Shown here: in pieces, positions 6,734 through 59,400 of the stretch
Layout of the letters: every line of letters begins with the position of its first letter
How positions within the stretch are numbered: the stretch's first letter is position 1
NCBI GenBank assembly: GCA_023213395.1
Contig: CM041465.1
Coordinates: 147,257,741-147,321,740 of the forward strand
DNA from: Cycas panzhihuaensis
Taxonomy: Eukaryota; Plantae; Cycadophyta
Direction of reading: 5' to 3'
Length of the DNA stretch: 64,000 nucleotides
Position numbers and translations under genes: made by a program
Notes under the pieces: generated by a model
Seen by the model: only the letters and a program-made list of their open reading frames with translations
The model's database searches: none
Told to the model about the DNA's origin: nothing

Positions 6734-7099
6734 TGTTGTTTACGTAGAAGTAGAGTGAGACATTAGACTGAGCACATTTTAAGTTAACAAGATGTTTTCT
6801 AATGATGGCAGTGTTAATAAACACCAAGGAGGTATTCCCACCCCTTAAATAGATTTTTGGGGAGGCAACACGTGCCATCACCCGACTTGCATGTTAGCTG
6901 AAAAAATATTCAAACTATATTAAAAAAATAATATTTAATAAATAATGCACATACCTTAATAATATTTTGTCAGCTCTATGTCCCTTTAGCGGCTATTGGG
7001 AGGCTTTAGGTGCCCTAGGGGGCCTCAAAGGTGGCTTTAAGGGGTCCTAGGTGCACAGTTCTTCAAATACATTGGGGTTAATCTCAATATTCTCCCCCA

Positions 7100-10000
7100 T
7101 AAACCCAATGTAGACGACTCCCAAACTTTCTCTAAACTTCTAGAATTTGATATTTCCTAAAGCCTTTGTAAATTTTTTTGTTATCTGATCTTCGGTGTTG
7201 CAATAAGCTAACTCGATCTTGTCTACTTGTATAAGTTCCCGAATCAAGTGGTGTTGCATCTCAATGTATTTTATTCTACCATGGAATACTAGATTTTTAG
7301 TCATTTGGATAGTGCTTTAATTGTCATACCAAATTCTAATGGGACCTTGTTGTTTAATCTAAAAATCTTGTAAAAGTTTTCTTAGCCATATTGATTCACA
7401 AGCTTCTACAACTGCTGCTTTATATTCTACCTCGGTTGTAGATAAGGAGACAGTATTTTACTTCTTTATACTCTGAGCTACTGTTACTAATCCCATACTA
7501 AATACATAACCCATTGTAGACTTTCTATCAACAACATCACCTACCTAATCTGAATCTTTGTAGCAAATCAACTAAAATTTGGAGGTATTTTGTAATATAA
7601 CCCAAAATCTGGAGTCCCTTTAAGGTATCTAAGGATTCTCTTGGCAGCTTGCCAATGAGAGGTTTTTGGATCCTGCATAAACCTAGACACAGCATTAACT
7701 AAGTGTGTTATATCTGGTCGAATAGATATCAAATATATTAAGCTGTCAATGAGTTGTCTATAGAGAGTTGAACCAATCGAAGTTAAATCATCCGTCTTAG
7801 ATAGTTTGATTCTAGTTTCTTCTAGGGTTGCCAATGGTTTGTAGTCTATCATTATGAACCTTTGTAGTAGATCCAATATGTATTTGTATTGAGAGATGAA
7901 AATTCCCTATTTATCCTGCTTGACTTCTAATCCTAGGAAGTAATGCATAAGGCCTAAGTCAGACATCTTGAATTCCTTACACATAACATATTTAAATTGT
8001 TGTAAAAGATATGAGTCATTTCTGGTATAAACTAGGTCATCCACATAAAGACCTACAATCAAGATTGAACTTCCCTTGATTTGAGTGTATAAGTTTAGAT
8101 CTGCGTAAGATCTCTCAAATCCTTGATCTTTAAAATACTTGTATATGTAGGAATACCAAGCCCTAGGTGCTTGTTTTAGACTATATAATGTATTTTTTAA
8201 TTTATACACTTTGTTCTCTTCTCCCCTAACTTCAAAACCAAGGGATTGAGTGATATAGATGTCTTCTTTGATATATCCATTTAGGAAAGCACTTTTCGTA
8301 TCCATTTGATAAACTTTCCAACCCATTTGGGCTGCTAAACTCATCATCATTTGAACAAATTCTAACCTAACAACTGGGGCAAATGTTTCTGTATAGTCTA
8401 TGCCTTCTTTTTGAGTATATCCTATTGCAACCAATCTAGCTTTATATTTGTCGATAGAGCCCTCTGAGTGGAACTTGGTCTTATAGACATATTTTATGCT
8501 AATAATTTTTTTCTTTGGTGGTAAGTCAACGAGTTCCTATGTATCATTCTTAATAATGGACTTATACTCCTCTTCCATGGCTTTCTTCCAACATTCATGT
8601 TGATTAGCCTTAGTAAAGGTTTGAAGCTTATGAGTTTCTAGTACCTTGCTCATTAGGGAAAAGTTGACCCTATGTGAGCATGTGGATCTTTTATCGCTCT
8701 CCAAGATATCTCTCAAGTCATGGTTACGATGAACCCATTTAAGTAAGTATTGTGGTGGAGATTTGAGATGAAGTTTCCTCCTTACTCGATTCATGGATAC
8801 TTCTCCACATAAGAGGCACATATTTAGACTTATAAGATGTGCCAAACTTAATGACAATCTCCTTCTTCTTTTCTTGATTATCTTGGTAGTAGGTGTCTTC
8901 CTGAAATTTGACATCTCTACTCACTATAACTTTTCTTGATTTTGGATCATAAACCTTGTAGGATTTAGAAGATTTACTATAGCCAATGAAGATACATTTA
9001 ATACTATGGTCATCCAACTCGGTTCTTCTTTGATCAGGAATATGGACATATGCTAGACATCTAAATACCCTGAGATGATATATACTTGGTGTTTAACCAG
9101 TCCATGCTTCTTCTGGAGTTTTCCACCTAAGAGCTTTGGTGGAACATCTATTAAGTAAGTAGACAGTTGTATGAACTGATTCAACCCAAAATTATTGGCC
9201 CAAGTTCTTATCTTTAAGCATACATCTTTCCATTTCAACTATAGTTCGATTCTTCATTTCTGTTACACCATTTTATTGTGGGGTATAGGGGGTGGTGAAT
9301 TGTCTCTTGATCCTATTGTGGGTATAATCATCCTTAAAAGTATTGGATGTAAACTCTTCCCCATTATCTGATCTTAGAGATAGGATATGATATCCACTTT
9401 CTCGCTCTACAAAGGTTTTGAAGTCAACAAAGTGGTTGAAAACATCTAATTTATATCTTAGAAAGAAAATCCATATCTTCCTTATGAAGTTATCAATGAA
9501 GGTGAGGAAATATTTTGCACCTGCTAAGGAGAGAGTAGTCATAAGTCTAGAGATGTCTATGTATACTAATTGAAGAGGGGCAGATGCTTAATGGCTATAA
9601 TCTAGAAAGCTTTCTCTATGGTGTTTACCAAGAAGGCATCCCTCAAACAAGTTTTTTATTGACATCAATATGTGGTAAACTATTAACTGTGTCCATCCTT
9701 TTCGTAAGAGTCAAGTTGTTATAGTTAAGATGACCAAACCTTCTATGCTACAAGTCACTATCCATGGTAGTTTAGGTTCTGAGGGCATAGGTATCTGAAG
9801 GAGTGAGGATAAGCTTAAATAGACGATCCTTAGTCATTTTTCGTTTGGCAACAATAACTTTATTTTTCTTCTTATCTTTGATAAGATATTCACCATTGTC
9901 AAAAATCACATTGTAATCTTGTCCCATCATCTGTCCTACTAAGAGTAAGTTCTTCCTTAGGGAAGGGACATATAAGACATCATCTAAGTGTCTATATTCA

Positions 10001-11330
10001 CCTATATCAGTCATCAAAGCTATACTACCTTTCCTAACAGATTCATGGGAGATATTATCTCCAAGCATGATGGATCCTTTTATGTTTTTATCCAAGGTCT
10101 AAAATAAATATTCTTTGTTGGTTATGTGGGTTGAGCAACCTGAATTGATGTACTAGTTATCATCATCTTCTTCCTTACCAGAAAAACTAGATAGAAATAA
10201 TCTATTATTAACCTTTGATTCAAATGAATTTTGAGCATGTCCTCTAGATGGTGGTCCATATTTTGAGAAGCATTTATCTTCATTGTTACCACTTCTATGG
10301 CAATAAGTATAATACAATGGATCTTTTCTTCCATAGCTTAGGCTTCTACTCCTTGGATGAGAGTGATCAATATTGAAGGATCTTCCCCTTTCCTCATAAG
10401 ATTGATGAGGGTTGTCTCTTAGTCTATTGTCATGATATGCCTAATTTGACCTTGAATATTAAGAATTCCCTTGGCAATTTGGATAGCAAGTATGATTCTC
10501 AAATTATCTCCTTTGATTGATATTTCTTAGAGGGTCTTCATGTTGTTGGGGTCCTTCTTGCATCCTTTAGTGAGGGGCTTAATATCTTGGAGGGTCTTGT
10601 CTAGTATCCCTTTGAGGATTTCCACATTTTCTTCTTAGAGGTGATTCTTTTTGCCTTGAGGTTTCTACTTGAGAGTTAGATTGAATGTAGGCCTTTGTAG
10701 CAAAGGCATGTTCTAGAGATTCATTTATACTTTGTTATTCTTATATAGACACAAGCATCACACTAACTTGTTCTACTTTGAGAGTGCTTAGATCTTTTAA
10801 AATACTGATACTAGTAGCCACCATTTCAAAGCATCTGATAGCTACAACACATCTAAGGATCCTTTCAACTACCCTTTGTTCAGTTAAGGTATCTCTAAGA
10901 GACCTCATTTAGTTTACAATGTCTTAGATTTTGGTCATAAATTTTGTTATGGATTCATTGGGCATCATACGTAAATTTTTAAACTTACTTCTTAAGTTCT
11001 GTAGTTTAGAGGAGGATACTCCTTCATATATTAGCTATAAGATGTCACAAGCTTCTTTTGACTTAACTGATTCACTAACTCATAGAAAAACATTGTCTTC
11101 AAATGCATAGAAGACGAGGGCTAAGGCTTCATTGTCTTTCTTGACATTCTCCTTGTAGGTAGCATTTTCTACATCAGATAGATTTTATCCTAATTCGTTG
11201 TAGCCTGTCTTTACAATTTCCCACATGTCATTAGTTATGAGGATGGATCTCACCCTCCTACTCCAATTTAGAAAATTATTTTCCATCCAATTTAGGGATA
11301 ATCATGTTCCCAAAGCTAGAAGTCATATTG
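7100..11330 (-). pseudogene. Element C gag-pol (gag, zinc knuckle, PR, IN, RT, RH), fragmented
   Basis: ORFs 9772-10095 (PR-distal), 9273-9542 (IN, LRSDNGEEF), 8739-9017 (KCIFIGYS), 7907-8434 (RT: GIDYTETFAPV, QMDTKSAFLNG, YVDD), 7568-7876 (YRQLIDSLIYLISIRPDI); knuckle YCHRSGNNEDKC ~10270-10310. Confidence 0.93.
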
Positions 11331-12513
11331 AACTAAAGTTTTATTAATCAAAGGTGACAAATAATTTTGCAAAGTTAAATTTAAATATCAAAAAAAATAT
11401 TTGAATTAAAATTTTAAAAAAACGTTTTAAGTGTGAAATCTACTTCCAAATATAACCTAAGGTTTTACCCAAAGTTTTGAATAAATGAACTAGTACCTAT
11501 TAAGGCTACTAGGCTCTAAGTTCAAGTTTCTCATAGGGTAACCTTCAGTCATTATCCTATCTAGTGGTGCCTGCCCACAGATAGAAAAATAGGGACCCAA
11601 TATACTAGTACGTGAGCACTAAGCTCTATATACCTCAATACACAGACTACTAAGAAGGCTTTTACACCCCCCTAAATTATTTATCCACTTATGCCAGACT
11701 TATGACTAGCGACAAATCTAGCGGTGAAAGTTCTCGAACCAAGGCACTCACCCTCTCCAGGTATAGCCTTAGTCTCCAAACACCATAAATGAAATAGGTT
11801 CTTCACCTCAACCTAACACCAAATACACTTGATAGCTAATGACTATCATTAACTAATATGAGTAGGCTGATTAGCATATGTAGGGTGGTAACTTTAAGGG
11901 ACCTAACTGTTCCCCTTACTAGGTTGGAAAAAATGGTGGTTCAATTTGGGATTATCTTTTTAATATGAAAAATTTTAATTATTAGTGTGGTCTTGCTTAA
12001 GTTTTTGAATGATTCTTTTTATGCAAAAAAGAGAATAACTTGAATGAAATATAATGACCTCTAAGCAAGATGAAATAAACAATGGACTCATGAAAGAAAT
12101 ATGCAAGTAATTACTTTCCAAAAAAAATGTAATGCCCTTAAAAGTGAAATGTACCTATAGAAAGCAAAGCGTACTACCAACTAGATACAACCTTTATAAG
12201 TGCAACAAGTGTATGAACTTTTCAAGTGTATGCCTTTAAAATAAATTAATAAACTTATAATGTATAATTTCAAATACACTTTGAAATACAATGATTATAT
12301 GAGCAAATTTAGAAAGTAACTAAGATCCTTTAAATATGCAGATCTAAAATAAAACTTCTTGATGATGAAAAAATAAAAAAGATGTTAAGCTTTTGATTTT
12401 TCAAATGAATAAACACAAACTTGAGCAAGAGAATGACCTTCTTTTTTAATGCAAGATTAATAAGTATTCATTTTGTCTATGATGAAGATATATGATGCAG
12501 GAAATCTAACATT

Positions 12514-12567
12514 AATATATATATCTATATATCTATATATATATATATAGATATATATATACATACA

Positions 12568-12617
<50 letters not shown>

Positions 12618-12620
12618 CAC

Positions 12621-12651
<31 letters not shown>
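12514..12651. repeat. Compound (TA)n/(TACA)n microsatellite
   Basis: Direct reading. Confidence 0.95.
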
Positions 12652-12652
<1 letters not shown>

Positions 12653-15140: not shown

Positions 15141-15147
15141 ATCTATA

Positions 15148-15196
<49 letters not shown>
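15141..15196. repeat. (TA)n microsatellite
   Basis: Direct reading; generates the YIYIYI ORFs. Confidence 0.95.
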
Positions 15197-15203
<7 letters not shown>

Positions 15204-15779
15204 AAAACGTGAAGAACCTAATAATGCAGCTATAACCAGTTTGTAGAAGATTGACTTCAGAGAGCGAGATTTTCTTCCACAAAAGGTAAAACTTCGAATT
15301 GATTTCTCTAATAGACAGATGGGCTTTCCAGGAATCCAACAAGTAATCATATACTACACTTTCGTCAAGCAGATGAAGAGATAGATTAGTAAAATAAATA
15401 TCAACCTACACTCTAATACCAAATGTTGTTTGCAGAGGAGCAGAGTGGGATATTAGACTGAGCACATTTTGAATTAATAAGATGTTTTCTAATGATAGTG
15501 GTATTAAAAAATACCAGGGAGGTATTCCCACCCCTTAAATAGATTTTTGGGGAGGCATCATGTGCCATCACCTGACCTGCACATTAGCCAATAAAATATT
15601 CAAACTATATTTAAAAAATAACATTTAATAAATAATGCACATATCTTAATAATGTTTCATCAGTTGTGGGTCCCTTTAGCAGCTATTGGGAGGCTATAGG
15701 TGCCCTAAGGGGCCTCAAAGGTGGCTTTGAGGGGCACTAGGGCCACGGTTCTTCAAATACATTGGGGTTAATCCCAATA

Positions 15780-16374: not shown

Positions 16375-16820
16375 TCAAAGAAGATGGTAATAGGATCATC
16401 ATACTCTATTCTATTCGTGAAAACCCCTTGTGGCCGCGAAATAATAAGAGTAAGTCCCTACTCTATCCTATTTATGAAAATCCCATGTGGGCACAAAAGG
16501 ATAAGAGCTATATTAGTTTTAGAAAATCAGAACCTATGAAAACTCAAAAGGGCATAGGGGATGACCAAATAGTATATAGAGGCTCAGCAAATCAAGTTGC
16601 ACATTTAAGTTGGTTGGCTATCAAGCTAAATTAAGAGCCACCTTAGCTATTTTTATTTATAAAAGGGACTATAGATTTTAGAAAGTCTGTGGGTTTTTAT
16701 TCCCCATAAGGGTTTTTCCACAAAAGTATCATTTAGAATTTCAATATAATAATAAGGCTCAAATGAAGACCTCATAGTATAGATTTTCTCAAAATGACCT
16801 TCCACCATTAAAGGGGGGAT

Positions 16821-17131
16821 TGAAAGAGGTTAATGTATCAAGGTCATTTATGTAGATTAATTAATTAACCTTAAGATATATTGTTAGCATTAGTCTCTTA
16901 GTGAAATGCGCTTTATGTGAATTTAAATGTAATTTCAAGCTCATGTCATAGGCAGAAAAATCCTAACCCTAATACTCACCCTCAATAATAAAAGGTGAAA
17001 TCTCAAAGTGGGAGTCAGTATTCATTCTCACCTCTAAGCTTTGCTCTCATATCTTATTTCATCTCTTTTTCATTATCCATTGCCATTGTGTGCATGTAAG
17101 TGATTTATTTCCTAGATCTATCCTTCCTTTA
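16821..17131 (+). repeat. 3' LTR of element D (311 bp)
   Basis: Preceded by PPT, followed by TSD; terminal CA mutated to TA. Confidence 0.9.
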
Positions 17132-21014: not shown

Positions 21015-24000
21015 TGTTAATTTAATTCAAAAAAGTAGAAGGCTGATGAGTAGAATTGAACCATTTTTTGTTAAGGAGATGATCTCTTAAATATACAAGG
21101 AGACTTGTAACCATTATAATAAGTTTTGAAACTAACTTTTAAAGGCATGAAACCTGTCACATTCATATGTGTGAATTACATAATTAAGGGTTTATTAATG
21201 ACTCTTTGTAATGTCTACATAAAACATTACCTCTAGACCCCTCTCTTAATGTTTTATCTCTCTCAGTCCTACTTTGTCTCTTAGAAATTTCTTTTCCTAA
21301 TGACTTTGTCAATAGATCTGTAATTTGTTCTATAGGAGAATAGTACTCCAACTTGATTTCTTTATTGTGAGTGTTTTCCCTTATGAAGTAGTGATGAACT
21401 TATATGTGCTTGGTTCTCGTATGAAAAATTAGGTTATTGGTCAGTTTAATAGCACTCTGATTATCACAATATAAAGTTGTTGCTTGGCTCTGAGGCTAAT
21501 TCAAATCGATCAGAAATTGTCGAAGCCAAACTACTTCACAGGTTGCAGTTACAATTGCATTATATTCAACTTCAGTTGAGGAGAGTGTAACTGTATATTA
21601 TTTTTTGTTGTACCATGAGATTGCTATAGGTCCCAAGAAAAAATAGTAGCCACTAGTGGATTTTCTCTTCTCCTTGTCACCTGCCCAATGTAAGTCATAA
21701 TATCCTATAAGTTCTATTGATCCTTTTCGTGAGTAGATCAGTTTTAAATCGATTGTTCCCCATAGATATCTTAGGATCCTCCAAGCAGCTTTCCAGTGTC
21801 TTACTCTTAGTTCCTAGATATATTTGGAGATGACTCTGACTAAGTAGGATATATCAGGTCTGGTGGCTATGAGGTAAATCAGACTACCAATTAGTTGTCT
21901 ATATAGAGTGATGTCAATTGGTTGTTCTCCTTTATATGTTATCAAGTCGCATTTGATTTCCATCAGTATTGTGCATGGATTATAGTTTGTCATACCAAAT
22001 TTACTTAGTATGTCCTTTATGTACTTGCTTTGTGAGAGGGCAATATATTCTTGTTGCTTACTCACTTCTAATCCTAGATAATAGTTAAGAAGACCAAGAT
22101 ATGCCATTTTGAATTTTTTTTCTAATTGCCCTTTTATCTCCATAATTATTTTTTCATCATTCCCTATAAGGATCATATCATCTACATAAATGACAATTAT
22201 GGTAATTAAACCATCATTTTTCTTTGTGTATAAACTAGAATCTGAGATGCAGTATTGGAATCTGTTATAACACAAATGTTGATCTAGTTTGGCGTACCAT
22301 ACACGAGGGGCTTATTTTAGCCTATATAGAGCCCTTTTTAGTTTGCACACCAAGTGTTCTTGTCCTTTCTTAATATAACCTTTAAGCTATGCCATATATA
22401 CATCCTCTTCAAGATAGCCATTCAGGAATGCGCTCTTTATATCTAACTGCAAGATTTTCTAGTTGTGTAATGCAGCAAGTGCAATCATAGTTTTTACTAT
22501 GTCCAACTTTGCTACAGGAGAGAAGGTTTCTTCGAAGTCAATTCTAGATGTCTGGGTATACCCTTTTACAATAAGCCTTGCTTTGTATTTTTTTATTTTC
22601 CTATTGGCCCCTTCCTTTACTTTCTACACCTATTTGCAGTTAATTATCAGTTTCTCTAAAGGAAGTTCTACCATGTCCCATATTTGATTTCTAACAATTG
22701 AGTCCATCTTAGCATCCATAACTTCCTTCTATTTTGGTTGATCTTGAGCTTCATGAAAGGACTAAGGTTCAGTTCAGCTGAACAAAGCTTTTGGTTTTTG
22801 ACTTCTTATTTTATTATCAAGTACATTTCCCATGTCTTCAATTGTCTTAATGAACCATGTAGGTAACTTACTTTCCTTTGTCGAGTCTTCTCTTGCCTCT
22901 GAGTATTTCGAATAAGAATCTGTTGCCTATGTTGAACCTTCTTCTTTAGATGAGTGTATGTGAGACAAGGATGATTCCGGCGATGGAATCTCTTCTGTAG
23001 CAATGTCTGAAGTTTCTTCTGTGAAGTCTTCTCTACTTGAGTTTTTTATTTCTTCCTCAATTAATTTGATTTGAGTTTAAGAATCAAAACTTTCTTTATT
23101 AAAAACCACATCTTGGCTAGCATATATCTTGTTTATTTTTGGATCAATGTATTTATAATCTTTTAAATTCTTATTATACCCTATCATAATGTATTCTATG
23201 TTTTTCGCATCAATTTTTGATCTTTTCTTATGTGGTATATATACATAGACCTGACTACTAAATACTTTAAGTGAGTTGACATCAGGTTTCTTACCTATCC
23301 ATTCTTCTTCAGGTGTAATGTTCTCTAGGGATTTAGTTTGACTCCTATTTATTAGGTAGTAGGCTACATTAACTACTTTTGCCTAATATGATTTCAGAAC
23401 CTACTTTTCATGAACCATACTTTGAGCCATCTTTATCAAGGTTCTATTTTTTCTCTCAGCAACCCCATTGGATTGTGGGGTATAGGGTGTGGTGACTTTT
23501 CTTCGTATTACGTTTTGCTTGCAATAGGTTAGAAATTCATTGGAGATGTACTCCTCTCCTCCAATAGATCTTATGCACTTTATTTTGATTTCAGACTCTA
23601 GTTATACTTCTACTTTAAACTCCTTGAAGATTTCAAAGACTTCTAATTTATTATGCAAGAAGTGCACCCAAACTTTTCTAGTAAAATCATCAATAAAGGT
23701 TCATAAATACCTACAACCATTTATTGAAAGTGGGGTGAGTGGTCCACAAAGATTTGTGTAAATTAATTCCAATTTACTTTGTGTTCTCTATTTTCTTTCT
23801 TTGAATAGTAGTCTATGATGTCTTCCAAATTGGTATCCCTTGTAAACAAAATTTCCTGAAGAGATGTGAGGTAGTCCATGTACTACATTATATTTTTTCA
23901 TTTTCTTTAATGTTTCTATTAGTAGATGCCCATACTTCAAATGCCAAAATTTATTATTAGAATTCATAACAGTATAAAATTTTGGACCTAGACTTGGTAT

Positions 24001-27745: not shown

Positions 27746-30700
27746 TGAAAGTTTAAAAGCATGGAGACAGAGCAGAACAATAACCAATCTTCAATCCATT
27801 GTAGAGTAAGAGCATAAACCAAATCATATTCATCAAGCCTTGTTTGAGAGCATCACAGATTTCCAAAATAGTGGTGGTGTCAAACAACACTAGGGTTTGT
27901 CACCCCATAAAATATATAGTTTGAGAGAGGAGAAAAACCTCCTCAACCTCTAAAATTTAAACAATATTAAAATAATGCTTAACTTAAGTGAATATTAAAC
28001 TTACCTAACTTACCTTCACATGTGTATACTCACATGTGCAAAAGGTAGGAGTGGGGTGATGAACATTAACCCCAACATTCTCCCCCTTAATAGTCATCAT
28101 GATCATCTTCACTTTTCTTTGAATTTATGGTACATGTATTTGAGGAAAATTTTAAGAGAGTGATTGATTATGTGTCCTTTAGCTTTGTCTTCATTAACTT
28201 TTTTCATTGTCCTTACAAAGTGGTTTCCTTCAATGTAGTATAGTTCAAGTGATCTCTAAGTAGGTGTGGTTTGCTTTGAATGGAGAAGAGTTGCTTCATC
28301 TTTTACTTTATCTTCTTGATCATTTGTCTTATGAGAATCAATCAAGTCATAGGTATATACAACATCACCAAGTGTAACATTGTGATCATCCATTTTATTT
28401 GAGTCATCAGCATTAGCCTTTTCAACATAAAATGCATGCTCTACCATTTGTCTCACATGTACAACATCATGAACATAGTTAATTTCATTTAAATCTAAGG
28501 TTTCTCTCCCATAAATTGATTCTAGAGTATCCTAAATAGATTTAGATATAATTAACTCACCAACATTAATGAATACATCATTATTTATTGTGCTAAAGAT
28601 TAATACTATGACTTCATTATCATTTTTTAAGTTTTCTTTAAAATTTTGTTCATCTTCTAAGTAACTATATGCAATAAATTTTTAAAAATTATTTACACTA
28701 AGATGTGTTTTTAACAAATCTTTCCAAACATGAAAATTAGTCCTATCAAATGTGGAAATTAACATATCATCAAGATAAGTTGCCATTTGTAAAAAATTTA
28801 GTTTATGAACTCAAATGAATAGATGAAGTCCTTTAATGAATTAATAACATAAAGTAGGGAATAAATGCTTTTTCACAAATATAAATCCCTTAAGATAAAT
28901 GCTTTCTGTTAGGATAGAACTAAATCAATCAATGATTTTATGTAAATCTTAAAGGTAAAGGGCTAAAATGAGCCAAAGATAATTTAAAATATATATACTA
29001 TCTTTTAGATGAATGCCTTCATAAAGCAATGAAAAGTAACTTGATAATTTATGATTCAAGAATATTGTTTGCAAGATAACTTTCATATGGGTTTAAATAA
29101 GCTTTTAAAAAAATGAAGTGCTTTGAATGCTTACATGCAATAGAATGCACCTTGAAAATACTTTGAAAGCTTGAAATATAATCCAATAAACCTTTAATAT
29201 ATAGATGAAATTATTAAGAGTAAATATGAGCTCTTTTAAATCAAAGAAATATGTATATATATACTTGAAATATGATTATGGAATAAACCTTAAATGAATG
29301 TCTTCAAAGAGACAACAATTGGCCTAAAATAAGCAATAAATAAGCTTTGGGAGAGCTTTGAATTAAATTTATAAGCTAAAAGATAAAATGAAAGCTTTAG
29401 AATAAGGTTAGAATGTAGTAGTTTAACGTTTATGATCCAAAGGGGGTTCCTTCTCTTTAAGAGACTGAAATAGAGCTTAATAGCTGTAAAAACTCAATTT
29501 GTAAGCTTTTAAGATAAGCAAGAGTTGCCAGCAACTGATTAGTTTCTCAATGATAAATAAATATGTTGAGTTAGAGAAAAAAAATTTACTTGAAATATTT
29601 AATAATATGTCCAATTAGGACCAAATAGGAGCCACAACTTTAACTACTTCAAAGAACTTCAAAATAATGACAAAATAAAGTAAAACTCATTCTAATATAA
29701 AGAATATTAAAAACCCTTTGCGACGAATCTAACTGTTTAGAAAATAGGCTCTTAGAGCTCAAGACATTAATGAATGAGTGGGAGGACCCTTTTAAGGGCT
29801 TAAAATAGAGCCACAAACTTAGATGCTATGAAATTTAAATTAAATCTTTGTAGAATGATGTGAAAATACTCATATACAAATTAGAGATCCCTTAGTATGT
29901 CTCAAGCTAAAGAAACTTATAAAATTTACTTTAATATTGTTGAAAATAATGAACTAAGCTAAATAAGTTACCTCAACTTCACTGGATTTGAAAACCTACA
30001 AAACAACTTCAAATCAGATAAAAAATTATACCATCATGTAGAGAATCAAAGCAGCTTTCCAACATATCCAGTCGTTTGAAGAAAAGACTCCTGAATCAAA
30101 AGTTATAAGTGAAATAGTCAAGATAACTTATTATGAAAAAAAAAAATTTAAAAAGAGTTTTAATAAGCCCCTTTTGAAAATGGCCCGATCACATGGAGAC
30201 CAATATGGCCACTAGTCAGTTGAAGAAGGGTGATAGGACTTCAAATATCATTAAAGTAAATTAAATCAAAGTTATAAAGTTTAACTTCATAAGAATTAAT
30301 CAAAATGTAAATAAATTTAAAAATAAAAAATATGCAAAGGTTGTGCACACAGATAAAACTTCGTGGAGCTCATTCTCTTCATACACAACTTAGATTAAGA
30401 CAAAATTTTAGACAACGCTAGATATCCCTACTAAAAAGTCACCTATAAAATTTCATAAAGATCTATTGAACATAAAGAGAGAACAAAATGATTGATCTCG
30501 GGAAGATCATGTAGGATGTATGGATTGCGTAGAGGTCGTATGGCTCAGTGAGAGCCCAAAATACTTCAAAGATTACTTAGTCTACTTTGTATTAGGTCTA
30601 CACCATAGTTACAAAAGAAACCAAATAAAAAACAAAGCCAAAATGAGTAAATAAAAAGTGGGGAAGAGAGATTTTACTCCCAAAATGAGTAACCAAGGTT

Positions 30701-35269: not shown

Positions 35270-37990
35270 TGAATGGTTTGATATGCACAACATACATCTA
35301 GATCTTTAGCACACATAACAAACATCAAACAATAAGGAATGGTATATCGAATATACATGAGAGAACCCTTTTAAGAAAAAAACCCACCAAGCCAAATTAA
35401 TTATTATATTGATTATGCCATAATGAGATGATACATCCAACTTAAGGGCAGGGTATATATTCAAACATATATGTTGTGTTCATTTAAAGAGATTAAACTC
35501 TTCCTTTATCATGGCCATTTAATTAATCAACTCATTAATTAATGTCATTTATAACAATTAAATATGGTTAATACTTAGCCATATTGATCTTCCCCCACCC
35601 CCCCCCCCCCCACCCCGGCCTTAATGGAAATGTGGAGAATTAGGCTTTAGTCATAAATCTCTAAGTCAAGACAGGAATTATCCTTGTTGATACATCACCT
35701 CTCAAGGATAATTTCATTGAGTCCTAACTTGGCTCGAAGCTTTATAAATTAATCTTTAGTAAGTGCCTTTGTGAATATATCTACAAGTTGATCATTTTTT
35801 AGGTAATACTTAATCTACAACTTCCTTACCTAAATTTTCTCATAAATATAATGGGGTTGGATCTAAATATGCTTCATACAACCATGGAACTCTAAATTCT
35901 TCATCAAACAAATGGTACTTTGATTATCAATCAGTATAATTGACATGTCACTCTATATTGCTAGAACATGCAGTCCTCACAACTTCCCTTACATTAATAA
36001 ATAAGCCTTGTTACTTCACCTTAGTGAAAGATAATACAATTGTCTTCTATTTCTTAAAGTGCCAGGAAATAGGTCCATTGCCAACACTGAAAATATATTT
36101 AGAAGTGGACTTACAGTCACCAATGTCTCCACCCTAATCAACATTAATATATTTAACTAGTTGTGTCCCTCTATGTCGAAGGTACTCCAAGCCAACATGT
36201 AAAGTCTTATTCACATACCTTAGAATCCTCTTCACAATAACTCGGTATGGTTATTGGGTATTTTGTATGTAGCAAGAAATCAACCTAATAATGTATACAA
36301 TATCTAACATGATATGAGTCAAGTAGATGAGACTTCCTACCAATTATCTATATAGTGTTCTATCTACTATAGGGTTCATATCCTTCATCATCTTAATGCC
36401 TTTGGGGCACGGTGTTCTAACATGCTTGCAATCTAGATCTTAAAGTTCTCAAGCAGGCTCTCTTTATATTTTATTTGCAACATCAAATTTTTGTCTTCCA
36501 TCTACCTTACCTCAATGCCCAAGAAGTAGAATAGATCCCTAGGATCTATCATACCAAAGGTTGCTCCCAAATTAGATTTTATTCCTACAATTGTGTTGTT
36601 AGAGTTGCTAGTAATAAATAAATCATCAACATTTTACACATGGACTATTATTGAAGCTTTTCTCCTTTAAATATATTGATTTGGCTTTAGATCTATGGTG
36701 ATAAATCCCTCTTATTTCAATTTGATATTGATCTTAGGATACCAAGCATATGATGCTTGTTTGAGGCCATAGAGTGACTCTTTCAAATGGCACACAAGAT
36801 GTTTCTATTATTTCTTAATGAAACCAAGAGGTTGTGCCATATAAATCTTCTCCTTTAACTCTCTATTAAGGAATGTTAATTTCACATCCATCTGGTGTAG
36901 TTCCCAACTATATTTTTCTACCAATAAAATGATCAAATGGACTATTATTATCTTAGATACTAATGCAAATATCTCATCATAATTATTCATTTCTTTCTAC
37001 TTAAACCCCTATATAATAAGTCTTGCCTTATACTTATCCACCTCTCTATTAAAGTAGAACTTGGTTTTATTACCCTGATCATAATCAAAAAGGTTTTTCT
37101 TATGAGGTAATGGGACCAACTCCCACATGAAATTTTGATTAGAGAACCATATGCCTCCTTTATAGTAGCCCTCTAATGAGGACCATCTTTTACTTCATCA
37201 TATAAAATTAGGTGATAGGAGTTTATAGTGTTAACCACCAAAGTTTGACTAGCATGTTGGCTCATCATTCTTCATCTATTTATTAGATTTTGAAGTATCA
37301 CACATGAATCTTCAATGATCCTCTTGCCCCACAATGACATCAAAACACCTAATGTTATCAGTGCCTCCTTACGGGATGACTTCTCATTATCACCTTCTCT
37401 ATTTAGTCCTTCTTCCTTCTAAATCACAACATCTAGTACCCCAACCTCTATTATTGATAAAACACCAACAATAAATGGAAGTAGTGGGGGGTAAAAGGTT
37501 TCTTTAGATAATGTATTTTTAGTATGATATATTTAGACTCATCAAATTCTTCATCCTAATTAATCACAAGTTTTCTCCCTCATAGATTCTATAGTTTAAA
37601 AGCTTTACTTTGATTTGAATTCCCCATAAATATACACTTTTAACTATTGCAATTAAATGTTTTGTGATCTTCATTTGAAATGTATGCATATGCAATAAAC
37701 CCAAAGTTCTTTAAATGGTCAATCATGAGTTTATGATTAATCCATTTTTCTTTGGGGGTTATGCTACAAATTACTTTTGTCGATATATTATTAAGGATGT
37801 AAATGATAGTTCCAATAGTTTTTATCCAAATATAGGTGGCAAGTTCTTTGCATAAGCCATACACCTTACTATTTCTATTATGGTACAAATTTTTCTCTTA
37901 GTAACACTATTTTATTATGGGGTGCATGGGACAATTAATTCCCATTTAATACCATGATCCTAGTATAATTGATTAAATATATAATTATTA
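35270..37990 (-). mobile_element. 5'-truncated, heavily decayed Ty1/copia element I (IN C-terminal half, RT, RH, PPT, probable 3' LTR)
   Basis: ORFs 36808-36990 (WELHQMDVKLTFLN..IYMAQPLGF) and 37640-37888 (IN C-terminus); RH motifs ~35750-36140; C-run 35592-35616 at the PPT position; LTR boundaries approximate. Confidence 0.8.
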
Positions 37991-44201: not shown

Positions 44202-46167
44202 TGAAGGTTTTTAAAATGGAGACAGAGCTTGCTAGATATCAAAATAATCAATCTATTGTAGCATAAACACAAACATAATAATCTTTGTTTTCAATCCATT
44301 TTTGAGAGAGCATTACAAATATCAAAAAATAAAGGTGGTATTAAAAGACACCAAGGTTTATCACCCCAGTAAAGATATAGTTTGAGGGAGGAGTAAAACC
44401 TCCTCAACCTCTAAAATTTAAAATATAATAAAATAATGCTTAACTAAAGTAACTTTAACCCTACCTTACTTATCTTCATATGTGTGCACTCACATGTGTA
44501 AATAGTGGGAGTAGGGTGATGAATATTAACCCTAATATTCTCCCCCTTAATGGTCATCAGGAATATTTTTGTCTTCTCTTTAAACTTATGAAACTTGAAC
44601 TTGAAAAAAACTTTTTTTTTAAAATTAACTATTTATCCTTTAGGTTGATCATCATCAACTCACCTCATCCTTTCGATAATGTGTATCTCTTTAATATTAA
44701 GTGGTTTAAATGAAGTCCAAGTAGGTGTAGTTTGATTTGAATGAATATAAATGGTTGTAACTCTAATTATATCTCTTAGAACTTTAACTTTGTCTTCTGA
44801 AATCTTTGTTTTGTGAGTATGTCATATTATAAGGTTTCTCCCCTCAAATAAAGGATCACCTTCACGTGCAACAAGGTGGTCGTTCATTTGACTTGAATTC
44901 TCTTCCTTAGTCTTTTCGTCATAAATAACCTACTCAGACATCTGTCTCACATGCTCAACAACATTAATGTTAAATTCATTTATATTGAGGGTTTTTCCCC
45001 CATAAATAGAATCTAAGGTGTCCCATATGGATTTGGAGGTCATCATTTTACAAACTTTAGAAAAAACATTGCCATCTATAGTGCAAAATAATATAGTTAA
45101 GGCTTCACTATCTTTTTTTATGTCTTCTTTATTATTAAGGTCATATCCATCTTGTAGGTATCTCCAAAGATCATTTGTGATAAAGTAAGTTTACATTGTT
45201 TTATTCTATTGTGAAAAATCATGGCCATCAAATATAGGGAATCATATTTTATTTAGATTGATTACCATTTATATAGAAAACTTTTGTACATAATAAAAAA
45301 AATATGATTTTCAAGTAGACAAATCCTTAAATGATGTCAATACTAATGCAAGTAAATGATAAAGACATTCTAGAAAGAATGTAATCTAATATCAATAATT
45401 TACCAATGTTCATCACCCCACTCCCACCATTTATACATGTGAGTGCACACATGTGAAGGTTAGTAAGGTAATATTAAAGTTACTTTAGTTAAGTATTATT
45501 TTATTGTATTTAAAATTTTGGAGGTTGAAAGGGTTTCCCTCCTCTCTCAAACTATATCTTTACTGGGGTGATAAACCTTGATGTCTTTTGACACCACCTT
45601 CATTTTTGGATATTTGTAATACTCTCTCAAAGATGGATTGAATACAAAGATTATTATATTTATATGTTTATACTATAATAGATTGATTATTTTAATATCT
45701 ACTCTGCTCTGTCTCCATTTAAAAAACCTTCATTTGGTATTAAAGCTTTGATACCAAATGAGCGCAGAATCTAAGGTCTGATACTAAATGAAGGTTTTTA
45801 AAATAGAGACAGATCGAAGCAAATATCAAAATAATCAATCTATTATAGCATAAACACATAAACACAATAATCTTTATATTTAATCCATCTTTGAGAGAGT
45901 ATTACAAATGTCCAAAAATAAAGGTGGTGTCAAAGGATACTAGGATTTGTCACCACAGTAAAAATATAGTTTGAGGGAGAAGGGAAATCTCCTCAACTTC
46001 TAAAATTTAAAATATAATAAAATAATGTTTAACTAAAGTAACTTTAACCTTACCTTACTTACCTTCACATGTGTGCATTTTACTTTAACCCTACCTTACT
46101 TACCTTCACATGTGTGCACTCACATGTGTAAATGGTCGAAGTGGGGTGATGAACATTAACCTAAACA
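44202..46167 (-). mobile_element. Non-autonomous element G (E-related) with three LTRs, the middle one inverted
   Basis: Direct LTRs 44202-44537 and 45789-46167; perfect TSD ttaat (44197-44201 / 46168-46172); PPT (rc) 44538-44546; inverted LTR 45405-45732; PBS copies at 45735-45788. Confidence 0.93.
44540..45268 (-). pseudogene. Truncated gag-derived ORF of element G
   Basis: MVINLNKI*FPIFDGHDFSQ*NKTM*TYFITNDLWRYLQDG..SKSIWDTLDSIYG; collinear with the ORF of E. Confidence 0.72.
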
Positions 46168-52200: not shown

Positions 52201-53420
52201 TTGGGAGTGACATCAAATAGATTAAAGATCTCAAAGAACACTTATTAAAAACAATTAAGATGACAGAGTTATGAATTCTACATTACTATCTTAAAATCAA
52301 GATATTACAAGAGCATGAAAGCATGTTCATATCATAATCTAAACATGCATGTAATTCATTGGAGACATTTCACATGGACAAGTTCAAATTGGTTGTTAAT
52401 CCCATATAAACAAGTATAAAGCTAATTAGGTAAACTAATGAAGAGAGCATAAATAAAACCTTATATAGATAGTTAGTGGACAGTTTGATCTATCTAACTA
52501 CCATGAGACCTAATATTAGTTATGATGTTAGCATGGCATCAAGATTTATGAGTAGTCCTTACATTTCATATTAGAAAGTTGCTAAACATATTCTGAGTTA
52601 AGTAAATAGGACTATTAGGATTGAGCTTGAGTTCTCCAAGTGTCTAGATTTTAGATTATAGGGGTATGTAAATTTAAATTGGGAAGGTGACAATGATGAT
52701 ATGAAGTGTATTTCTAGATATATCTTGATACTAGGATAGTTATCATTTCTTAAGATATATCATTATCATCGATAGAGGTAGAGTATAAAATAATAGTTAT
52801 AGATACTTATGAGGCAATTTGGCTGAGGGTGTTATAGTTATCACCACATTCAAATTTATTAGGAGGGTGTCATAGTTTTATTCTGTAATAACCACAATAC
52901 CATACAACTCTTAAAGAATCTAGTTTTTTATGCAATGATAAAGCGTATCAAGATCTATCAAAATTCCATTTGGAAATAGATATAAAATAATCTAGTATAG
53001 TTGGTATAATACCTAACTAAGGACTAGATTATAGATATATTGACTAAGGCACTAAGTAGGTAGAAGTTCAAGAAGTTTAGAGGAATTCTTAGGGTCAAAG
53101 ATAATAAAGTTAATATTATGGGGGAGTGTTAGGAATAATGTTAACTTTATAATTTTATGTTATTAAAGGTATTTTCTCACATATGTAAGAATGTAACTCC
53201 TTAGTTTAATATTATGTAACTCCCATATTATATTATAACTCATGTCTCTTTGTATCAATACTTTATACCCACCAATGAGATACATGTATAAGTATGAGAC
53301 ACTTTCTTCTATTATGTTAATGAGGATTTATCTAGGACTTGTTAGCATACTTATGTAAAGGTTTTATTAGTGTTTTTCTTTTCTTTTGCATTGTTACTCT
53401 GTAAAATTTTTCTCTTAATA
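49240..53420 (+). mobile_element. Heavily decayed Ty1/copia element J (gag-IN-RT-RH, PPT, 3' LTR; 5' LTR not found)
   Basis: Knuckle YFYCGKVGQITKN ~49990; LWHD*YGHLNY ~50510; LELIHSDL ~50685; LRSDSSGKY ~50885; IHQIDVKSAFLN ~51960; YIDD ~52180; TTMRPNISY ~52500; PPT gggggag 53120-53126; LTR from tgttagg 53127 to ~53420. Confidence 0.85.
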
Positions 53421-54163: not shown

Positions 54164-54285
54164 GAGGACTTATCCTCAAAAGATCAATCTCCTTTAAAAG
54201 TTATCAACTCCCATCTTAGGGAAAAATATAGAGAGAGGACTTATCCTTAAAAGATCAAACTCCTTTAGAAGTTGTTAACTCCCAT
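54164..54285. repeat. Short direct repeat (~50 bp, period ~71)
   Basis: gaggacttatcct.aaaagatcaa.ctccttta.aagtt.t.aactcccat occurs twice. Confidence 0.8.
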
Positions 54286-56412
54286 ATAATAATTATAGAA
54301 ATGCTCAGAGAAGTTTAAAGGATTGCAAGAGTAAGCAAATGAAATAAGAGAAAAAAGTCTTAGGTTAAAAGTAAAAATACACCCCTAAAATAAAGCCTAA
54401 TGTACAATGTTATGGGAGCCTTTATAACAAGGTGCTTTTAATCAAGTTGAGCATCCCAATGAATAGCTAAAGTAGGCTTTAAGAGGGACATAGTTAATGT
54501 AGAGTTTAACAAATATAGGTTATGAGGATATGATCACTTTGGTTACAAACATTTAGGATTTTCTAGCTAAAGTACATAAATTACGAAAATTAGTAGATTC
54601 CTTGGTAAAGATATTGAATAATTATTACAATATGTTTGATGAGGTTATACAAGGAAAACTTTAGGAGTCACAATAAAGGGTTGCAAGTTTAACCTTTACA
54701 TCATCTCCTGATTAGTTATTTTATGCAAGATGGGAATAACTATTGATTGTAACATTCACCCATCTTAGAGAAGAAGCATATTCTCCACAAAAGCAATAGC
54801 TAAATCTACTTTTCCCTAAATTTATAACCCTTTGTCAAAGAAATGAACTTTCCTTTATAATAAGAGAGGAAGGTCACATAGAAAAATATCATTTTCTAAG
54901 AGAGATTAAAGAATATAATGTAAGGAGACTACAAGAAAATGTGACCCATGATGCTCTAAATTCTCAACAATGAGCCCAACATTTGTATGCTCAAATTGAG
55001 AGACAAGCATAGCTAAAATGTTTAACCCAAGTGGAGTCACCTAAACTAGAGTAGATAATGGCAAGATGTTACCAGCTCCAACTCTCCATAGAGTTGGCTA
55101 ATACTTCCTTAGCTCAATAAATTTTTTCTTAAGTTGGAGTAGTTATAATGGTCAAGCAATTAAATAGGAATTTTAACAATTAGAAGTAGCTATTATTTAG
55201 AATTAGTTTTAAAAGGAAGGTGGACAAAAGAAAAAGTATTATTATCACTTAGTCTACCCTATATAATTACCAACTTTTCTATTTTCTTTACTTTACTATT
55301 TTTCCAACGATGATACATACTTATGTCAATTTCACACCCTCAATTTTTAAATGCTTCTTTTGCTTGTTGTATTCTCTTCTTTTAAACTAAAATTTGGACA
55401 TGTACAAGATAGACCTACATGAAAATCTTGGTTCATGGGCAAGGACATAATAAGAGTCTAGGGCACCACTCTTATTAAATCATATACTATTATAATCTTA
55501 AGTTGCACTTCATGTTATTAGACTTATTGCATATCAAATTGATGAGTTAGTCTACTCTCTGATCCCTCATATGTAATTTGTTCTATAATTATTAAGTATC
55601 ATTTAGGTTTATTAAATCTACCTACTATACTTTGAGAATGTTCAATGATGATTCATAATTTCTATAATTTTCCAACTTAGTTCTTAGTTATCATGGAGAT
55701 TATATACTCATGTTTTTAATATTATAAATGTCTATTTAAGAAGTTGTTTTAGCACTATCTTATTTTACTTCTTTTGTGTTCTTATTTCACTTTATGTTAC
55801 CTTCTTAACACTATTTCTTGTCATTTATTTTTCTTGCACAAACACCATTAATTTACATCATCTATAAAAAATGTAGTTGCTCATTTTATATATTGTAAAT
55901 GCTATATGTGATGTATCACCAATTATAAATAATTAAGAAGTCATCCCTCATTAAGTGAAGGATTTTTACCTATTTATTACCATATCTTTTTACAATCTTA
56001 ATTTGAACATTATGTGGACCTTGTCACCATTGCCAAAAAATATTAGGAGATACAAAATTACAAGTCAATATGGACCATCTCTTACAACTAATCCAACTAG
56101 AGGAAAACACAAATATAGTAACATGATTATAGAATATAGAGAAGAATCATCAAAAGACATGGCATGGCTACCATATCAAAGCCCCTGTTGAAAAACATAG
56201 CATAATTTAAACAGAGAAGAGAAGAGTATGTATTTTATTAAGATTCAATCTCCTTAAATATACATCAATAATGTGATGGTTACAACCTCTAATGTAATCG
56301 ATCAGTCTGAGACTGCCAAGTGGCACAATCTTACATTATGACTACATTAAGGGTGGTCCTAACATGACCCCCGTTCTTACTTAGAGAAAACATTACATCT
56401 CAACACCCCCTC

Positions 56413-59400
56413 TTAATGTTTTATCTCTAATAATCTTATTTTGTCTCTTAAATATTTGAGCCTTTCTCTTCCAAGAGGCTTTGTCAGAAGATCTGTAACT
56501 TGTTCAGCTGTGGGACAATATTCCAAGTCAATCTCTTTATTATGCACATTTTCTCTTATGAAATGATGATGAACTTTAATATGCTTTGTTTTTGCATGTA
56601 GAATTAGATTTTTTGTTAGCTTGATGGCACTTTGATTGTCACATTTCAAGGAGGTTGCTCCTTTTTGCTGTTGATCTAAGTCAAGCAGAAGTTGTCTTAA
56701 CTAGATAGCTTCACAGGTTGCTAGCGTAGCTACTTTGTATTCTGCTTCTGTAGAGGAGAGAGCTACTGTAGCTTGTTTCTTACTACACCATGAGATTGAT
56801 GAAGATCCTGAGAAAAAATAATATCCACTAGTGGATTTCCTTTATTCTTTGTCACCAGCCCAGTCAGAGTCGCAATACCCTGATATTTCGATTGGGTACC
56901 CTTTTAAGTATACTAACTTAAGATCTGTTATTCCTTTAAGATATCTTAAAATTCTTTTTGTAGCTTGCTAATGTCTCAACTTTAGATTTTGCATGTATCT
57001 GGATATTAGTCCTACTGAGTAGGATATGTCAGGCCTGGCGGCTGTCAAATAAATCAGACTTCCAATCATTTGTCTATACAAGGTGACATCTACATCCTTT
57101 TCCATACTATCTGCTATTAAGTCACAGTTTGTTTCCATGGGTGTTGTACATGGATTACAGTTCTCCATCTGAAATTGAACAAGTAGATTTTTGATGTAGT
57201 TACTTTGGGACAAGGTTATATAGTTTTGATGCTGACCTACCTCCAATCCCAAGTAGTAATTTAGTGGACCCAAGTCTGTCATTTTAAATTTCTGCTGAAG
57301 TTGACTCTTGATGCCCTTAATTCCTCCTTCATCATTTCTAGTAAGAAGCATATCATCTACATAGACAACAATTATTGTTATCTTGTTGTTTATTTTCCTT
57401 ATGTAGAGACTGGAGTCAAAGTTACATCGATTGAACTTATTTTCTTCAAGGAAATGATCTAATTTGACATACCAAGCGCGTGGATCTTGTTTTAGACCAT
57501 ACAGAGCCTTTTTTAATCTGTAGACCAGATTCTCCTGTCCCTGTTCAGCGTATCCTTCTGGTTGTTGCATATAGACTTCTTCTTCTAGTTCACCATTTAA
57601 GAAGGTGCTTTTTACATCTAGTTGGGAGATTTTCCAATTTTTTGCTGCAGCCAAGGCTATTACTATTCTTACCGTGTTCATCTTTGCCACTAGAGAAAAG
57701 GTCTCATCAAAATCTACACCTACTGTTTGTGTGTACCCTTTCGCGACTAACCTTGCTTTGTATTTTTCTATTTTACCATCCATTCCCTTCTTTGTTTTGT
57801 AAACCCATTTGCAGCTTACAGTGGATATATTGGCTGGTAGTTCTACTAATTCCCACATTTGATTCTTCTTGATTGAGTTCATTTCATTGTCCATTGCCAC
57901 TTTCCATTCTTGACGATCTTTTACTTTTTGAAAGTTTTGAGGTTCGACTTTGCTTAGAAGAGCTCTTGAACTTTGTCCCTGTGTTTTCTGTTCTATTACA
58001 TTACTTTTTCCTTCTTCAATTATTTTAATATACCATTTTGGCAACTTTTTCTGTTTGTGTGAGTCTTCTTTCTCGATGGCATCTTCTGATACTTAACTGG
58101 TTTCATTTGATGATGGATCAGCTTGTCCTTCTTCTGAAGTGATTTCAGAATCATTTCCTTCCTCAGCTTCTTGTTCTTCTGAGGTAATTTCTGACTTATT
58201 CTCTTGCTCATCTTCATGTGTCTCTTCGTGTCTGATAGTTGCCTATTCACTTTCCTCCTCACCTTCTATTATTCTAATTTGTGAGGATTCAACAGAATTT
58301 TCTTCGTTAAAAATGACATCTCTTCTTACATAGATTTTGTTTGTTTTGGGATCTATGCATTTGTAGGCTTTTGAATTTTTACTGTAGCCTATCAAGATGC
58401 ATTATATGCTTTTTGCATCCAATTTGGACCTTTTTTTATCAAGAATATGCATAAATGCTTGACTACCAAAAACTTTGAGAAGACTTACATTGGGTTTTTG
58501 TCTTGTCCAAGCTTCTTCTGGGGTGACATCCTTCAATGCTTTTGTTGGGCTTCTATTTATTAGGTAGCATGATGTGTTAACTGCTTCTGCCCAATATGAC
58601 TTTGATATCTTTGTTCTATACATCATGCTTCGAGCCATTTCCATTAGAGTTATATTCTTTCTTTCGGCCACTCCATTCGACTGAGAAGTGTAAGGAGTTG
58701 TAATCTGTCTATGAATTCCTTGATCCCTGCAATAATTTAGAAACTCCTTTGATATATATTCTCCTCCTCCATCTGACCTGATGCATTTGATTTTCGTTCC
58801 TGACTCTAGCTCTGCTTCAGCTTTAAATTCTTTAAATGTTTCAAAAACTTCTAACTTATTATGTAGGAAATATACCCATATTTTCTGAGTGAAATCATCA
58901 ATGAAAGTTTAAAAATATCTGCATCCATTAATTGTGAGAGGTGTAATTGGACCACAAATATCTGTATATATCAATTCTAATTTTGACTGAGATCTCCAAG
59001 TGCTTTCTTTAAAAGGAAGTCTATGCCATTTGCCGAGTCGACAACCTTTACAAACAAATTTATCTAATGAAATGTTAGGTAGGCCATTTACCATTCCTAA
59101 TTTTTCCATTAGTTTAAGTATGTCAATTGAGAGATGCCCATACCTCAAATGCCAAGCTTTATTATTAGATTTAGAAGCAGCACAATCTTTTTCTTCCAAG
59201 TAAAGAAGTATAGGATCTAACAAGAGTTTGTAAAGATCATTATATCTAACTCCCTTTGCAACAATTTTCCCACCTCTCTTCATATCTAGAATATGACAAT
59301 TCCCTTCTTCATCGAAAATGGTTCTCAAACCCTTTTTGCTTAATTGAGAGACAGAGAGGAGATTTATTTTTAGATCTAGTACAAACAAAATATTTCCAAC

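What the first reader, a model, noticed from the sequence alone, without database searches (positions are those of the whole stretch)
7068..56430. Conserved, covarying stem-loop that puts the PPT/3'LTR junction in a 15-19 nt loop in seven copia-type elements
Seen: in each element an 11-20 nt arm just upstream of the PPT is the reverse complement of an arm ~8-10 nt inside the 3' LTR. C: tacattggggtta 7068-7080 / taaacccaatgta 7100-7112. D: aaatgaccttccaccattaa 16792-16811 / ttaatgtatcaaggtcattt 16830-16849. B: ataaaacatta 21219-21229 / taatgttttat 21247-21257. E: tgatgaacattaa 28057-28069 / ttaatagtcatca 28087-28099. G: 44517-44529 / ttaatggtcatca 44547-44559. J: ataaagttaatattat 53104-53119 / ataatgttaactttat 53135-53150. 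A: ttagagaaaacatta 56381-56395 / taatgttttatctctaa 56414-56430. Arm sequences differ between families while pairing and loop size (15-19 nt) are kept, even where the arm also encodes the last codons of pol (LEIKH* in A). Known (from memory): inverted-repeat arms around this junction have been described for Sireviruses; I do not recall them as a general feature of short-LTR copia lineages. Inference: a selected RNA/ssDNA structure for plus-strand primer selection by RNase H, strand transfer, or integrase end formation.
Basis: partly seen in the sequence, partly recalled or inferred. Interest (0 to 1): 0.8.

Follow-up and report, generated by a model that had tools for sequence, protein, structure and literature searches.

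The report
Known hairpin around copia primer site
Seven decayed copia-type jumping genes in this plant-type DNA carry a real, family-specific inverted repeat around the site that primes second-strand DNA synthesis, but this feature was described in 2010 for about half of ordinary copia elements, and its likely role in shaping that primer remains untested.

Summary
All seven inverted repeats (IRs) are present as listed, with loops of 15-19 nt that hold the PPT and the first 7-10 nt of the 3' LTR. They exceed chance (0-9 of 2000 shuffles). The seven elements are only five families (A=B, E=G), and an eighth copia element (F) has no IR. Pairing is family-specific. In family A, listed variation among copies falls in the loop, not the left arm. 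The elements fail the Sirevirus sequence markers, yet the feature is known: Bousios et al. 2010 (PMC2829016) found it in almost half of 30 classic copia elements, partly inside pol, and proposed the RNase H role. An independent set here agrees: 25 of 58 copia junctions versus 8 of 267 control anchors, with 21 of 25 loops at 16-22 nt. What is added: statistics, tight loop size, clade-patterned presence, and no G·U excess, which weakly favours folding in minus-strand cDNA. The function is untested. The scan earlier noted a related U3 hairpin in another genome.

The parts
56414..56426 (-). Element A left arm, abutting the PPT; encodes the last pol codons E-I-K-H and most of the stop (extends to 56430 with a bulge)
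   Evidence: no variant listed at >=3% here among family contigs of 4 runs
56396..56413 (-). Element A loop (18 nt): PPT plus first 10 nt of the 3' LTR (LTR starts at 56405)
   Evidence: all 4 variants listed lie here
56383..56395 (-). Element A right arm in U3 of the 3' LTR
   Evidence: its one mismatch (56386) differs from the element's own 5' LTR and from nearly all family contigs
56186..61439 (-). Element A, full-length decayed copia: 3' LTR 56186-56405, 5' LTR 61220-61439 (95% identical), tRNA-Met-type PBS, identical 5-bp TSD, gag/PR/IN/RT domains
21219..21257 (-). Element B IR: right arm 21219-21229, loop 21230-21246, left arm 21247-21257; same family and arms as A (LTRs 21015-21238 and 26002-26225)
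7068..7112 (-). Element C IR: right arm 7068-7080, loop 7081-7099, left arm 7100-7112 inside the pol frame; LTRs 6734-7089 and 15424-15779; C is nested in D
16792..16849 (+). Element D IR: left arm 16792-16811, loop 16812-16829, right arm 16830-16849; 3' LTR starts at 16821 after a 449-nt linker; 5' LTR starts at 2475
28057..28099 (-). Element E IR: right arm 28057-28069, loop 28070-28086, left arm 28087-28099; no pol detected (likely non-autonomous)
44517..44559 (-). Element G IR: right arm 44517-44529, loop 44530-44546, left arm 44547-44559; same family as E
53104..53150 (+). Element J IR: left arm 53104-53119, loop 53120-53134, right arm 53135-53150; LTR starts at 53127; the pol frame runs through the PPT
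35590..35630 (-). Element F presumed PPT region (expanded G run): counter-example with no IR detected

Best explanation
[quoted passage not shown] Shown: the left arm abuts the PPT, the right arm starts 8-10 nt into U3, the two can pair only at the 3' end of the element, and each family's arms match each other better than another family's. Inferred: once reverse transcriptase has copied both arms and RNase H has nicked the RNA over them, the arms would snap together, more likely on the new minus-strand DNA than on the RNA. That would push off the RNA flanking the PPT and leave the short PPT RNA:DNA hybrid plus the first U3 bases in the loop for accurate trimming and priming. It would be an accessory aid, not a requirement, since whole copia clades lack it.
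For: Geometry and chance tests. Cross-pairing: in the window each of five families pairs best with its own LTR (own 8-14.5, others 3-8). Across 60 junctions, own score >=8 in 27 of 60 versus 48 of 3540 swapped pairs. Conservation: A and B 5' LTRs are 56% identical overall but share 15 consecutive identical bases over the right arm. Among 553-1092 family contigs per run in 4 runs, all 4 variants listed at >=3% are in the loop and none in 56414-56424, while the third codon positions 56431, 56434, 56437, 56440 and 56443 just outside the stem all vary. Many contigs stop matching at 56382-56383 and 56425-56426, the outer stem edges (table 7). Several mismatches look like later decay: A's differs from its own 5' LTR, and swapping E and G halves scores 10.5 versus 8. 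Generality: 25 of 58 unrelated junctions at p<=0.01 versus 8 of 267 shifted anchors; loop 15-22 nt in 21 of 25 against 27% of the search grid. Literature: same IR and same proposed role (PMC2829016). For DNA over RNA: no G·U excess in stems (G·T 6, A·C 8), and Pollom et al. argue RNA structure itself is unlikely to modulate a primer that works as a hybrid (PMC3616985 passage).
Against: No experiment shows folding or function. RNAalifold on the plain MAFFT alignment of the seven junctions found 0 pairs; the arms are out of register there, and my register table is fitted to the stems. RNA folding z-scores are weak (-4.2 to +0.5), and in E and G the lowest-energy fold pairs the PPT with a C-run in U3 instead. 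33 of 58 outside junctions show no significant ungapped IR, and two well-supported clades have 0 of 5 and 0 of 7. The DNA-versus-RNA call is weak: the C·T over A·G excess (13:1, Fisher p=0.004 against control stems) was noticed after the fact and is not repeated in the published arms (about 6:4 classic and 4:4 Sirevirus, my hand count). The lower loop limit could simply reflect the integrase motif at the LTR start.
Confidence: 0.55

Rival explanations
1. The stem acts in the genomic RNA for something other than primer definition: pausing reverse transcriptase, RNA stability or packaging, or control of pol translation termination (the stop codon often lies in or just after the left arm).
For: The stem is in the RNA minimum-energy fold of A, B, C and J, and partly D. 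The left arm is fully coding in 14 and partly coding in 5 of 25 significant outside junctions. Lavender et al. suggest structure-induced pausing as a first step near the HIV PPT (PMC4439019 passage).
Against: No G·U excess (6 G·T vs 8 A·C). The arm tracks the PPT rather than the stop codon: it is non-coding in D (449-nt linker) and in 6 of 25 outside junctions, and present in E and G, which lack pol.
Confidence: 0.2
2. The arms are a by-product. The nascent minus strand folds back and copies itself near the PPT pause (template-switch correction of a quasi-palindrome), which perfects the IR without selection for a function.
For: Whole clades lack it and loop length varies 16-30 nt within a clade. 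A fold-back rearrangement at a PBS palindrome is seen in element G.
Against: Copy-correction keeps arms matched to each other but does not by itself keep them constant. The arm is unchanged between A and B while the rest of the LTR fell to 56% identity, and synonymous positions within the arm list no variants.
Confidence: 0.13
3. The hairpin serves a later step: removal of the PPT primer, second strand transfer, or presenting the U3 end correctly for integrase.
For: The loop always includes the LTR terminus and attachment bases.
Against: The left arm is not at the end of the finished double-stranded cDNA, so it cannot be read by integrase there (established retroelement biology). No data here address primer removal.
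Confidence: 0.1
4. Chance inverted repeats in AT-rich DNA, picked out by eye.
Against: 0-9 of 2000 shuffles. A blind junction set gave 25 of 58 versus 8 of 267.
Confidence: 0.02

Closest known systems
[quoted passage not shown] 2010, PMC2829016; read: abstract, sections 5-8, Discussion part 1 of 2, supplementary file 2 text)
   Same: Left arm borders the PPT, PPT at the 5' side of the loop, right arm in U3, arms 12-29 nt and about 89% matched, left arm in pol when the linker is short, RNase H recognition proposed.
   Different: Right arm starts 8-10 nt into the LTR here versus 18 on average there. These families have Ginkgo/pine-like RT and were not in that set of 30. The paper sections read give no shuffle, cross-pairing or within-family test.
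Sirevirus (SIRE/Maximus) PPT-flanking IR (same paper)
   Same: Same topology.
   Different: Sirevirus arms are longer (about 28 nt), share a conserved sequence and start about 28 nt into the LTR, with multiple PPTs, an AT/TG site and long LTRs. None of these was found here.
PPT-containing hairpin of HIV-1/SIV RNA (PMC3601003 Discussion passage citing Watts 2009; PMC3616985 and PMC4439019 passages; Watts 2009 itself not read)
   Same: Conserved structure at the PPT; a link to RNase H processing is debated.
   Different: In lentiviruses the G-rich 3' part of the PPT is itself base-paired. In these copia elements the whole PPT is predicted to be in the loop.
Conserved Hairpin Site of fungal GalEa copia elements (PMC5445492 passages)
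   Same: Hairpin next to an LTR in copia elements, function inferred.
   Different: It lies at the 5' LTR in place of the PBS, not at the PPT.

Membership tests
Ty1/copia LTR retrotransposon | Copia-type RT (RVT_2) with gag-PR-IN-RT-RH order | tested here: met
   A: gag_2, Pol_BBD, gag_pre-integrase, rve and RVT_2 in that order; C RVT_2; B gag_2. IN, RT and RH homology in B, C, D, F, J. No pol found for E or G.
Ty1/copia LTR retrotransposon | Paired LTRs, PBS, PPT, 5-bp TSD | tested here: met
   LTR pairs for A, B, C, D, E; tRNA-Met-type PBS; TSD matches A 5/5, C 4/5, B 2/5. J 5' LTR only partly seen.
PPT/3'LTR IR of Bousios 2010 | Left arm borders the PPT; PPT at the 5' edge of the loop | tested here: met
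   7 of 7 listed elements; not met in F.
PPT/3'LTR IR of Bousios 2010 | [quoted passage not shown] | tested here: met
   Starts 8-10 nt in; 11-22 nt long, 80-100% paired.
PPT/3'LTR IR of Bousios 2010 | Functional role in RNase H primer formation | not testable with these tools
   A hypothesis in the paper too.
Sirevirus (SIRE) | Multiple AGGGGGAG PPT copies in a long linker | tested here: not met
   4 octamers in the whole window, none clustered; 0 in the D linker; A, B, C, J have almost no linker.
Sirevirus (SIRE) | PPT followed by the AT/TG attachment site; conserved Sirevirus arm sequence | tested here: not met
   0 exact matches to the 12-mer; arm motif found once, not at a junction. Exact matching is weakened by decay.
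Sirevirus (SIRE) | Long LTRs (0.54-1.68 kb), RM boxes, polyC integrase signal | tested here: not met
   LTRs 220-356 nt for A, B, C; 0 matches to RM-core or polyC patterns. The CG-rich RM test is weak in old methylated DNA.
Sirevirus (SIRE) / Gymco / other REXdb lineage | Placement by RT-RH-INT phylogeny against labelled references | not testable with these tools
   No labelled references held. A quick RH tree puts A, B, C, D, F in a group (SH-aLRT 94) with Ginkgo- and pine-labelled proteins; D and F are long branches and J was not placed. D has a 449-nt linker and an LTR start like PREM-2/OPIE-2, so its lineage is open.

The most novel reading that the evidence does not exclude
The IR is a widespread copia cis-element with a tight 16-22 nt loop, gained or lost by whole clades, that folds on the nascent minus-strand DNA rather than on the RNA and holds the PPT RNA:DNA hybrid in its loop as a structural gauge for RNase H. 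That would answer the objection that RNA structure cannot matter for a primer that works as a hybrid, and makes PPT selection testable with strand-specific wobble substitutions.
Probability: 0.3. Interest if true: 0.55.

Novelty: new member of a known kind. Interest (0 to 1): 0.25.

Why it matters
How short, poorly conserved PPTs are selected precisely is an open question. Benachenhou et al. 2013 wrote that a systematic search for PPT hairpins is warranted (PMC3601003), and my literature searches (open-licence library only) listed no later systematic or experimental study of the copia IR. The finding does not discover the feature. It adds further families, null-model statistics, evidence of constraint within a family, and a strand-specific test. 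The IR could also help annotate PPT/LTR boundaries in decayed elements.

Tried and rejected
No whole genome is held for this window, so no genome-wide census was possible. Viral contigs gave only 1 copia RH locus. Rfam: 0 matches at gathering thresholds; ARAGORN: 0 tRNAs. RNAalifold on the MAFFT alignment gave no consensus pairs; R-scape and structure-aware aligners were not available. My first junction regex mis-called many sites inside pol and was replaced by a stricter rule that is also blind to the IR. Of 80 loci, 12 had no junction called and 5 were too short, leaving 63 (29 at p<=0.01, 36 at p<=0.05). These collapsed to 58 by junction identity; only 9 of 63 had an exact 5' LTR match confirming the LTR start, and L038 is probably mis-called (kept in the 58, dropped along with L023 and L029 as kin of L019). 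The loci are the best 80 of 576 hits from 2 of 64 parts of the collection, ranked by likeness to one query, so they are not a random sample. Only ungapped stems were scored, so prevalence is a lower bound. The careful tree did not finish; the quick tree was used. Sequencing runs: no RNA holder listed, which says nothing on expression. Read laying seems not to list variants within about 30 nt of the ends of the stretch (my inference), and hid 19 of 59 rows, so constancy of the right arm across copies is only partly seen. The C·T over A·G asymmetry was considered as evidence for a DNA hairpin and downgraded because it did not repeat in the published arms (hand count). 'All are Sireviruses' was rejected on sequence markers. 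Figures 2c and 3 of PMC2829016 are not held, so per-element loop sizes of the classic set were not seen; supplements 1, 3 and 4 were not read.
Full report
Observation. All seven arm pairs are at the stated coordinates with loops of 15-19 nt. Self-BLAST, translation and motif scans map the elements: A (minus, 56186-61439), B (minus, 21015-26225), C (minus, 6734-15779, nested in D), D (plus, LTRs from 2475 and 16821), J (plus, pol 50368-53096), and E and G (minus, no pol found). In each listed element the left arm ends at the PPT, the loop holds the PPT and the first 7-10 LTR bases, and the right arm starts 8-10 nt into U3. Shuffling the upstream 40 nt gave an equal stem in 0-9 of 2000 trials, and 0.13-1.3% of 12,772 window positions score as high. 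F has no such stem. A and B are one family, and so are E and G, so there are five independent cases.

What the elements are. Pfam gives copia gag, protease barrel, integrase and RVT_2 for A. The best RT relatives among 3730 hits are Ginkgo- and pine-labelled proteins and unnamed ones at 46-52% identity, which suggests a gymnosperm host (inference). The Sirevirus markers described in PMC2829016 (sections 6 and 7) are not found: no PPT clusters, no AT/TG 12-mer, no RM or polyC motif, and LTRs of 220-356 nt in A, B and C. Formal lineage assignment was not possible without labelled references. The quick RH tree groups A, B, C, D and F with Ginkgo/pine proteins and some unnamed loci, with D and F on long branches.

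Is pairing conserved rather than sequence? Partly both. An inner ATTA/TAAT core is shared by four of five families, and outer positions show up to four different Watson-Crick pairs among five families in a stem-fitted register. RNAalifold on an unfitted alignment finds no pairs. An alignment-free test is cleaner: each family's upstream half pairs best with its own LTR (own 8-14.5, others 3-8), and over 60 junctions own scores reach 8 in 27 of 60 versus 48 of 3540 swaps. Within family A/B the right arm lies in 15 consecutive identical bases in LTRs that are 56% identical overall. Laying family contigs from four public runs on A lists four variants at >=3%, all in the loop and none in the left arm, whereas five consecutive third codon positions just outside the stem vary (19 of 59 rows hidden there). 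A's single mismatch differs from its own 5' LTR and from nearly all family depth, so it is likely post-insertion decay.

How general is it? An RNase H alignment fetched 80 copia loci. A rule blind to the IR called testable junctions in 63, with 29 at p<=0.01. After collapsing near-identical junctions this is 25 of 58, against 8 of 267 at shifted anchors. 21 of 25 loops are 16-22 nt and 13 of 25 are 15-19 nt, so the window's geometry is typical. The left arm is fully coding in 14, partly coding in 5 and non-coding in 6 of 25. Presence follows clades: 6 of 6, 3 of 3, 3 of 3 and 6 of 11 in four clades, 1 of 2 and 1 of 4 in two, and 0 of 5, 0 of 7 and 0 of 3 in three others. Loops of 16, 19 and 30 nt occur in one clade.

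What is known. Bousios et al. 2010 (PMC2829016, section 8) describe the IR in 18 of 21 Sireviruses and in almost half of 30 classic elements. The left arm always reaches the PPT, and it lies partly or wholly in pol in RIRE1, Tpv2, Mosqcopia and Art1. Fig. S3 lists 14 classic elements. Their Discussion proposes that the stem exposes the PPT to RNase H and may be universal. Benachenhou et al. 2013 repeat this, add HIV, and call for a systematic search. My hit rate (25 of 58, 43%) matches the published fraction.

Mechanism. Shown: position, family-specific pairing and constraint. Inferred: the role. A hairpin in the RNA is unwound before reverse transcriptase reaches the PPT. Pollom et al. doubt that RNA structure modulates a primer that acts as a hybrid, and Lavender et al. 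note that pausing would not explain the precise cut. The same arms can pair on the new minus-strand DNA. Stems show no G·U excess (6 G·T, 8 A·C among 41 mismatches; control stems 21:11, p=0.2; published arms about 4:4 and 9:15 by my hand count). Minus-strand DNA folds score z = -5.8 to -0.9 against -4.2 to +0.5 for RNA, although the two backgrounds are not comparable. This tilts weakly towards a DNA hairpin that strips flanking RNA and presents the PPT hybrid. Against: E and G prefer another fold, post-insertion deamination blurs the mismatch spectrum, the C·T excess did not replicate, and many clades do without the IR. I put selected aid to primer definition at 0.55, another RNA-level role at 0.2, by-product at 0.13, a later step at 0.1, and chance at 0.02.

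Verdict. Real and selected-looking, but a known kind of feature with an untested mechanism. Interest 0.25. The strand-specific reading would merit about 0.55 if shown. Earlier scan notes held no report of this copia IR on other DNA; one described a related hairpin wholly within U3 of microsporidian gypsy elements.

Noticed in passing
window 45405-46168: Element G has an inverted LTR copy (45405-45735) joined head-to-head to its 5' end through two PBS copies fused in a 22-nt near-palindrome around 45735-45756, giving a 634-nt inverted repeat at 84% identity; likely a fold-back accident during reverse transcription.
   Followed up: partly
window 6734-15779 within 2475-17129: Element C is inserted in the opposite orientation into the RT region of element D, with a 4/5 matching TSD.
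   Followed up: yes
window 28050-28090 and 44510-44550: In E and G the PPT can pair with a C-rich run just after the right arm in U3, an alternative fold that wins in the energy model; possibly a switch, possibly chance.
   Followed up: partly
window 53104-53134; L011, L020, L026, L079: In J and several outside loci the pol frame runs through the PPT and ends a few codons into the LTR (ending ...GEC...GEY or ...GGC), so arm, PPT and LTR start are all coding.
   Followed up: partly
window 35595-35625: Element F has an expanded G-run at its presumed PPT, which may have destroyed the usual geometry.
   Followed up: partly
window 38700-40608 and 43839-47638: A 1.9-kb segment is duplicated at about 71-72% identity; element G sits inside the second copy. 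A 93-95 nt tandem repeat related to it lies at 41969-42244.
   Followed up: no
L019, L023, L025, L027, L029, L035: One clade keeps nearly the same arms with loops of 16, 19 and 30 nt, a natural series for loop-length tolerance.
   Followed up: partly
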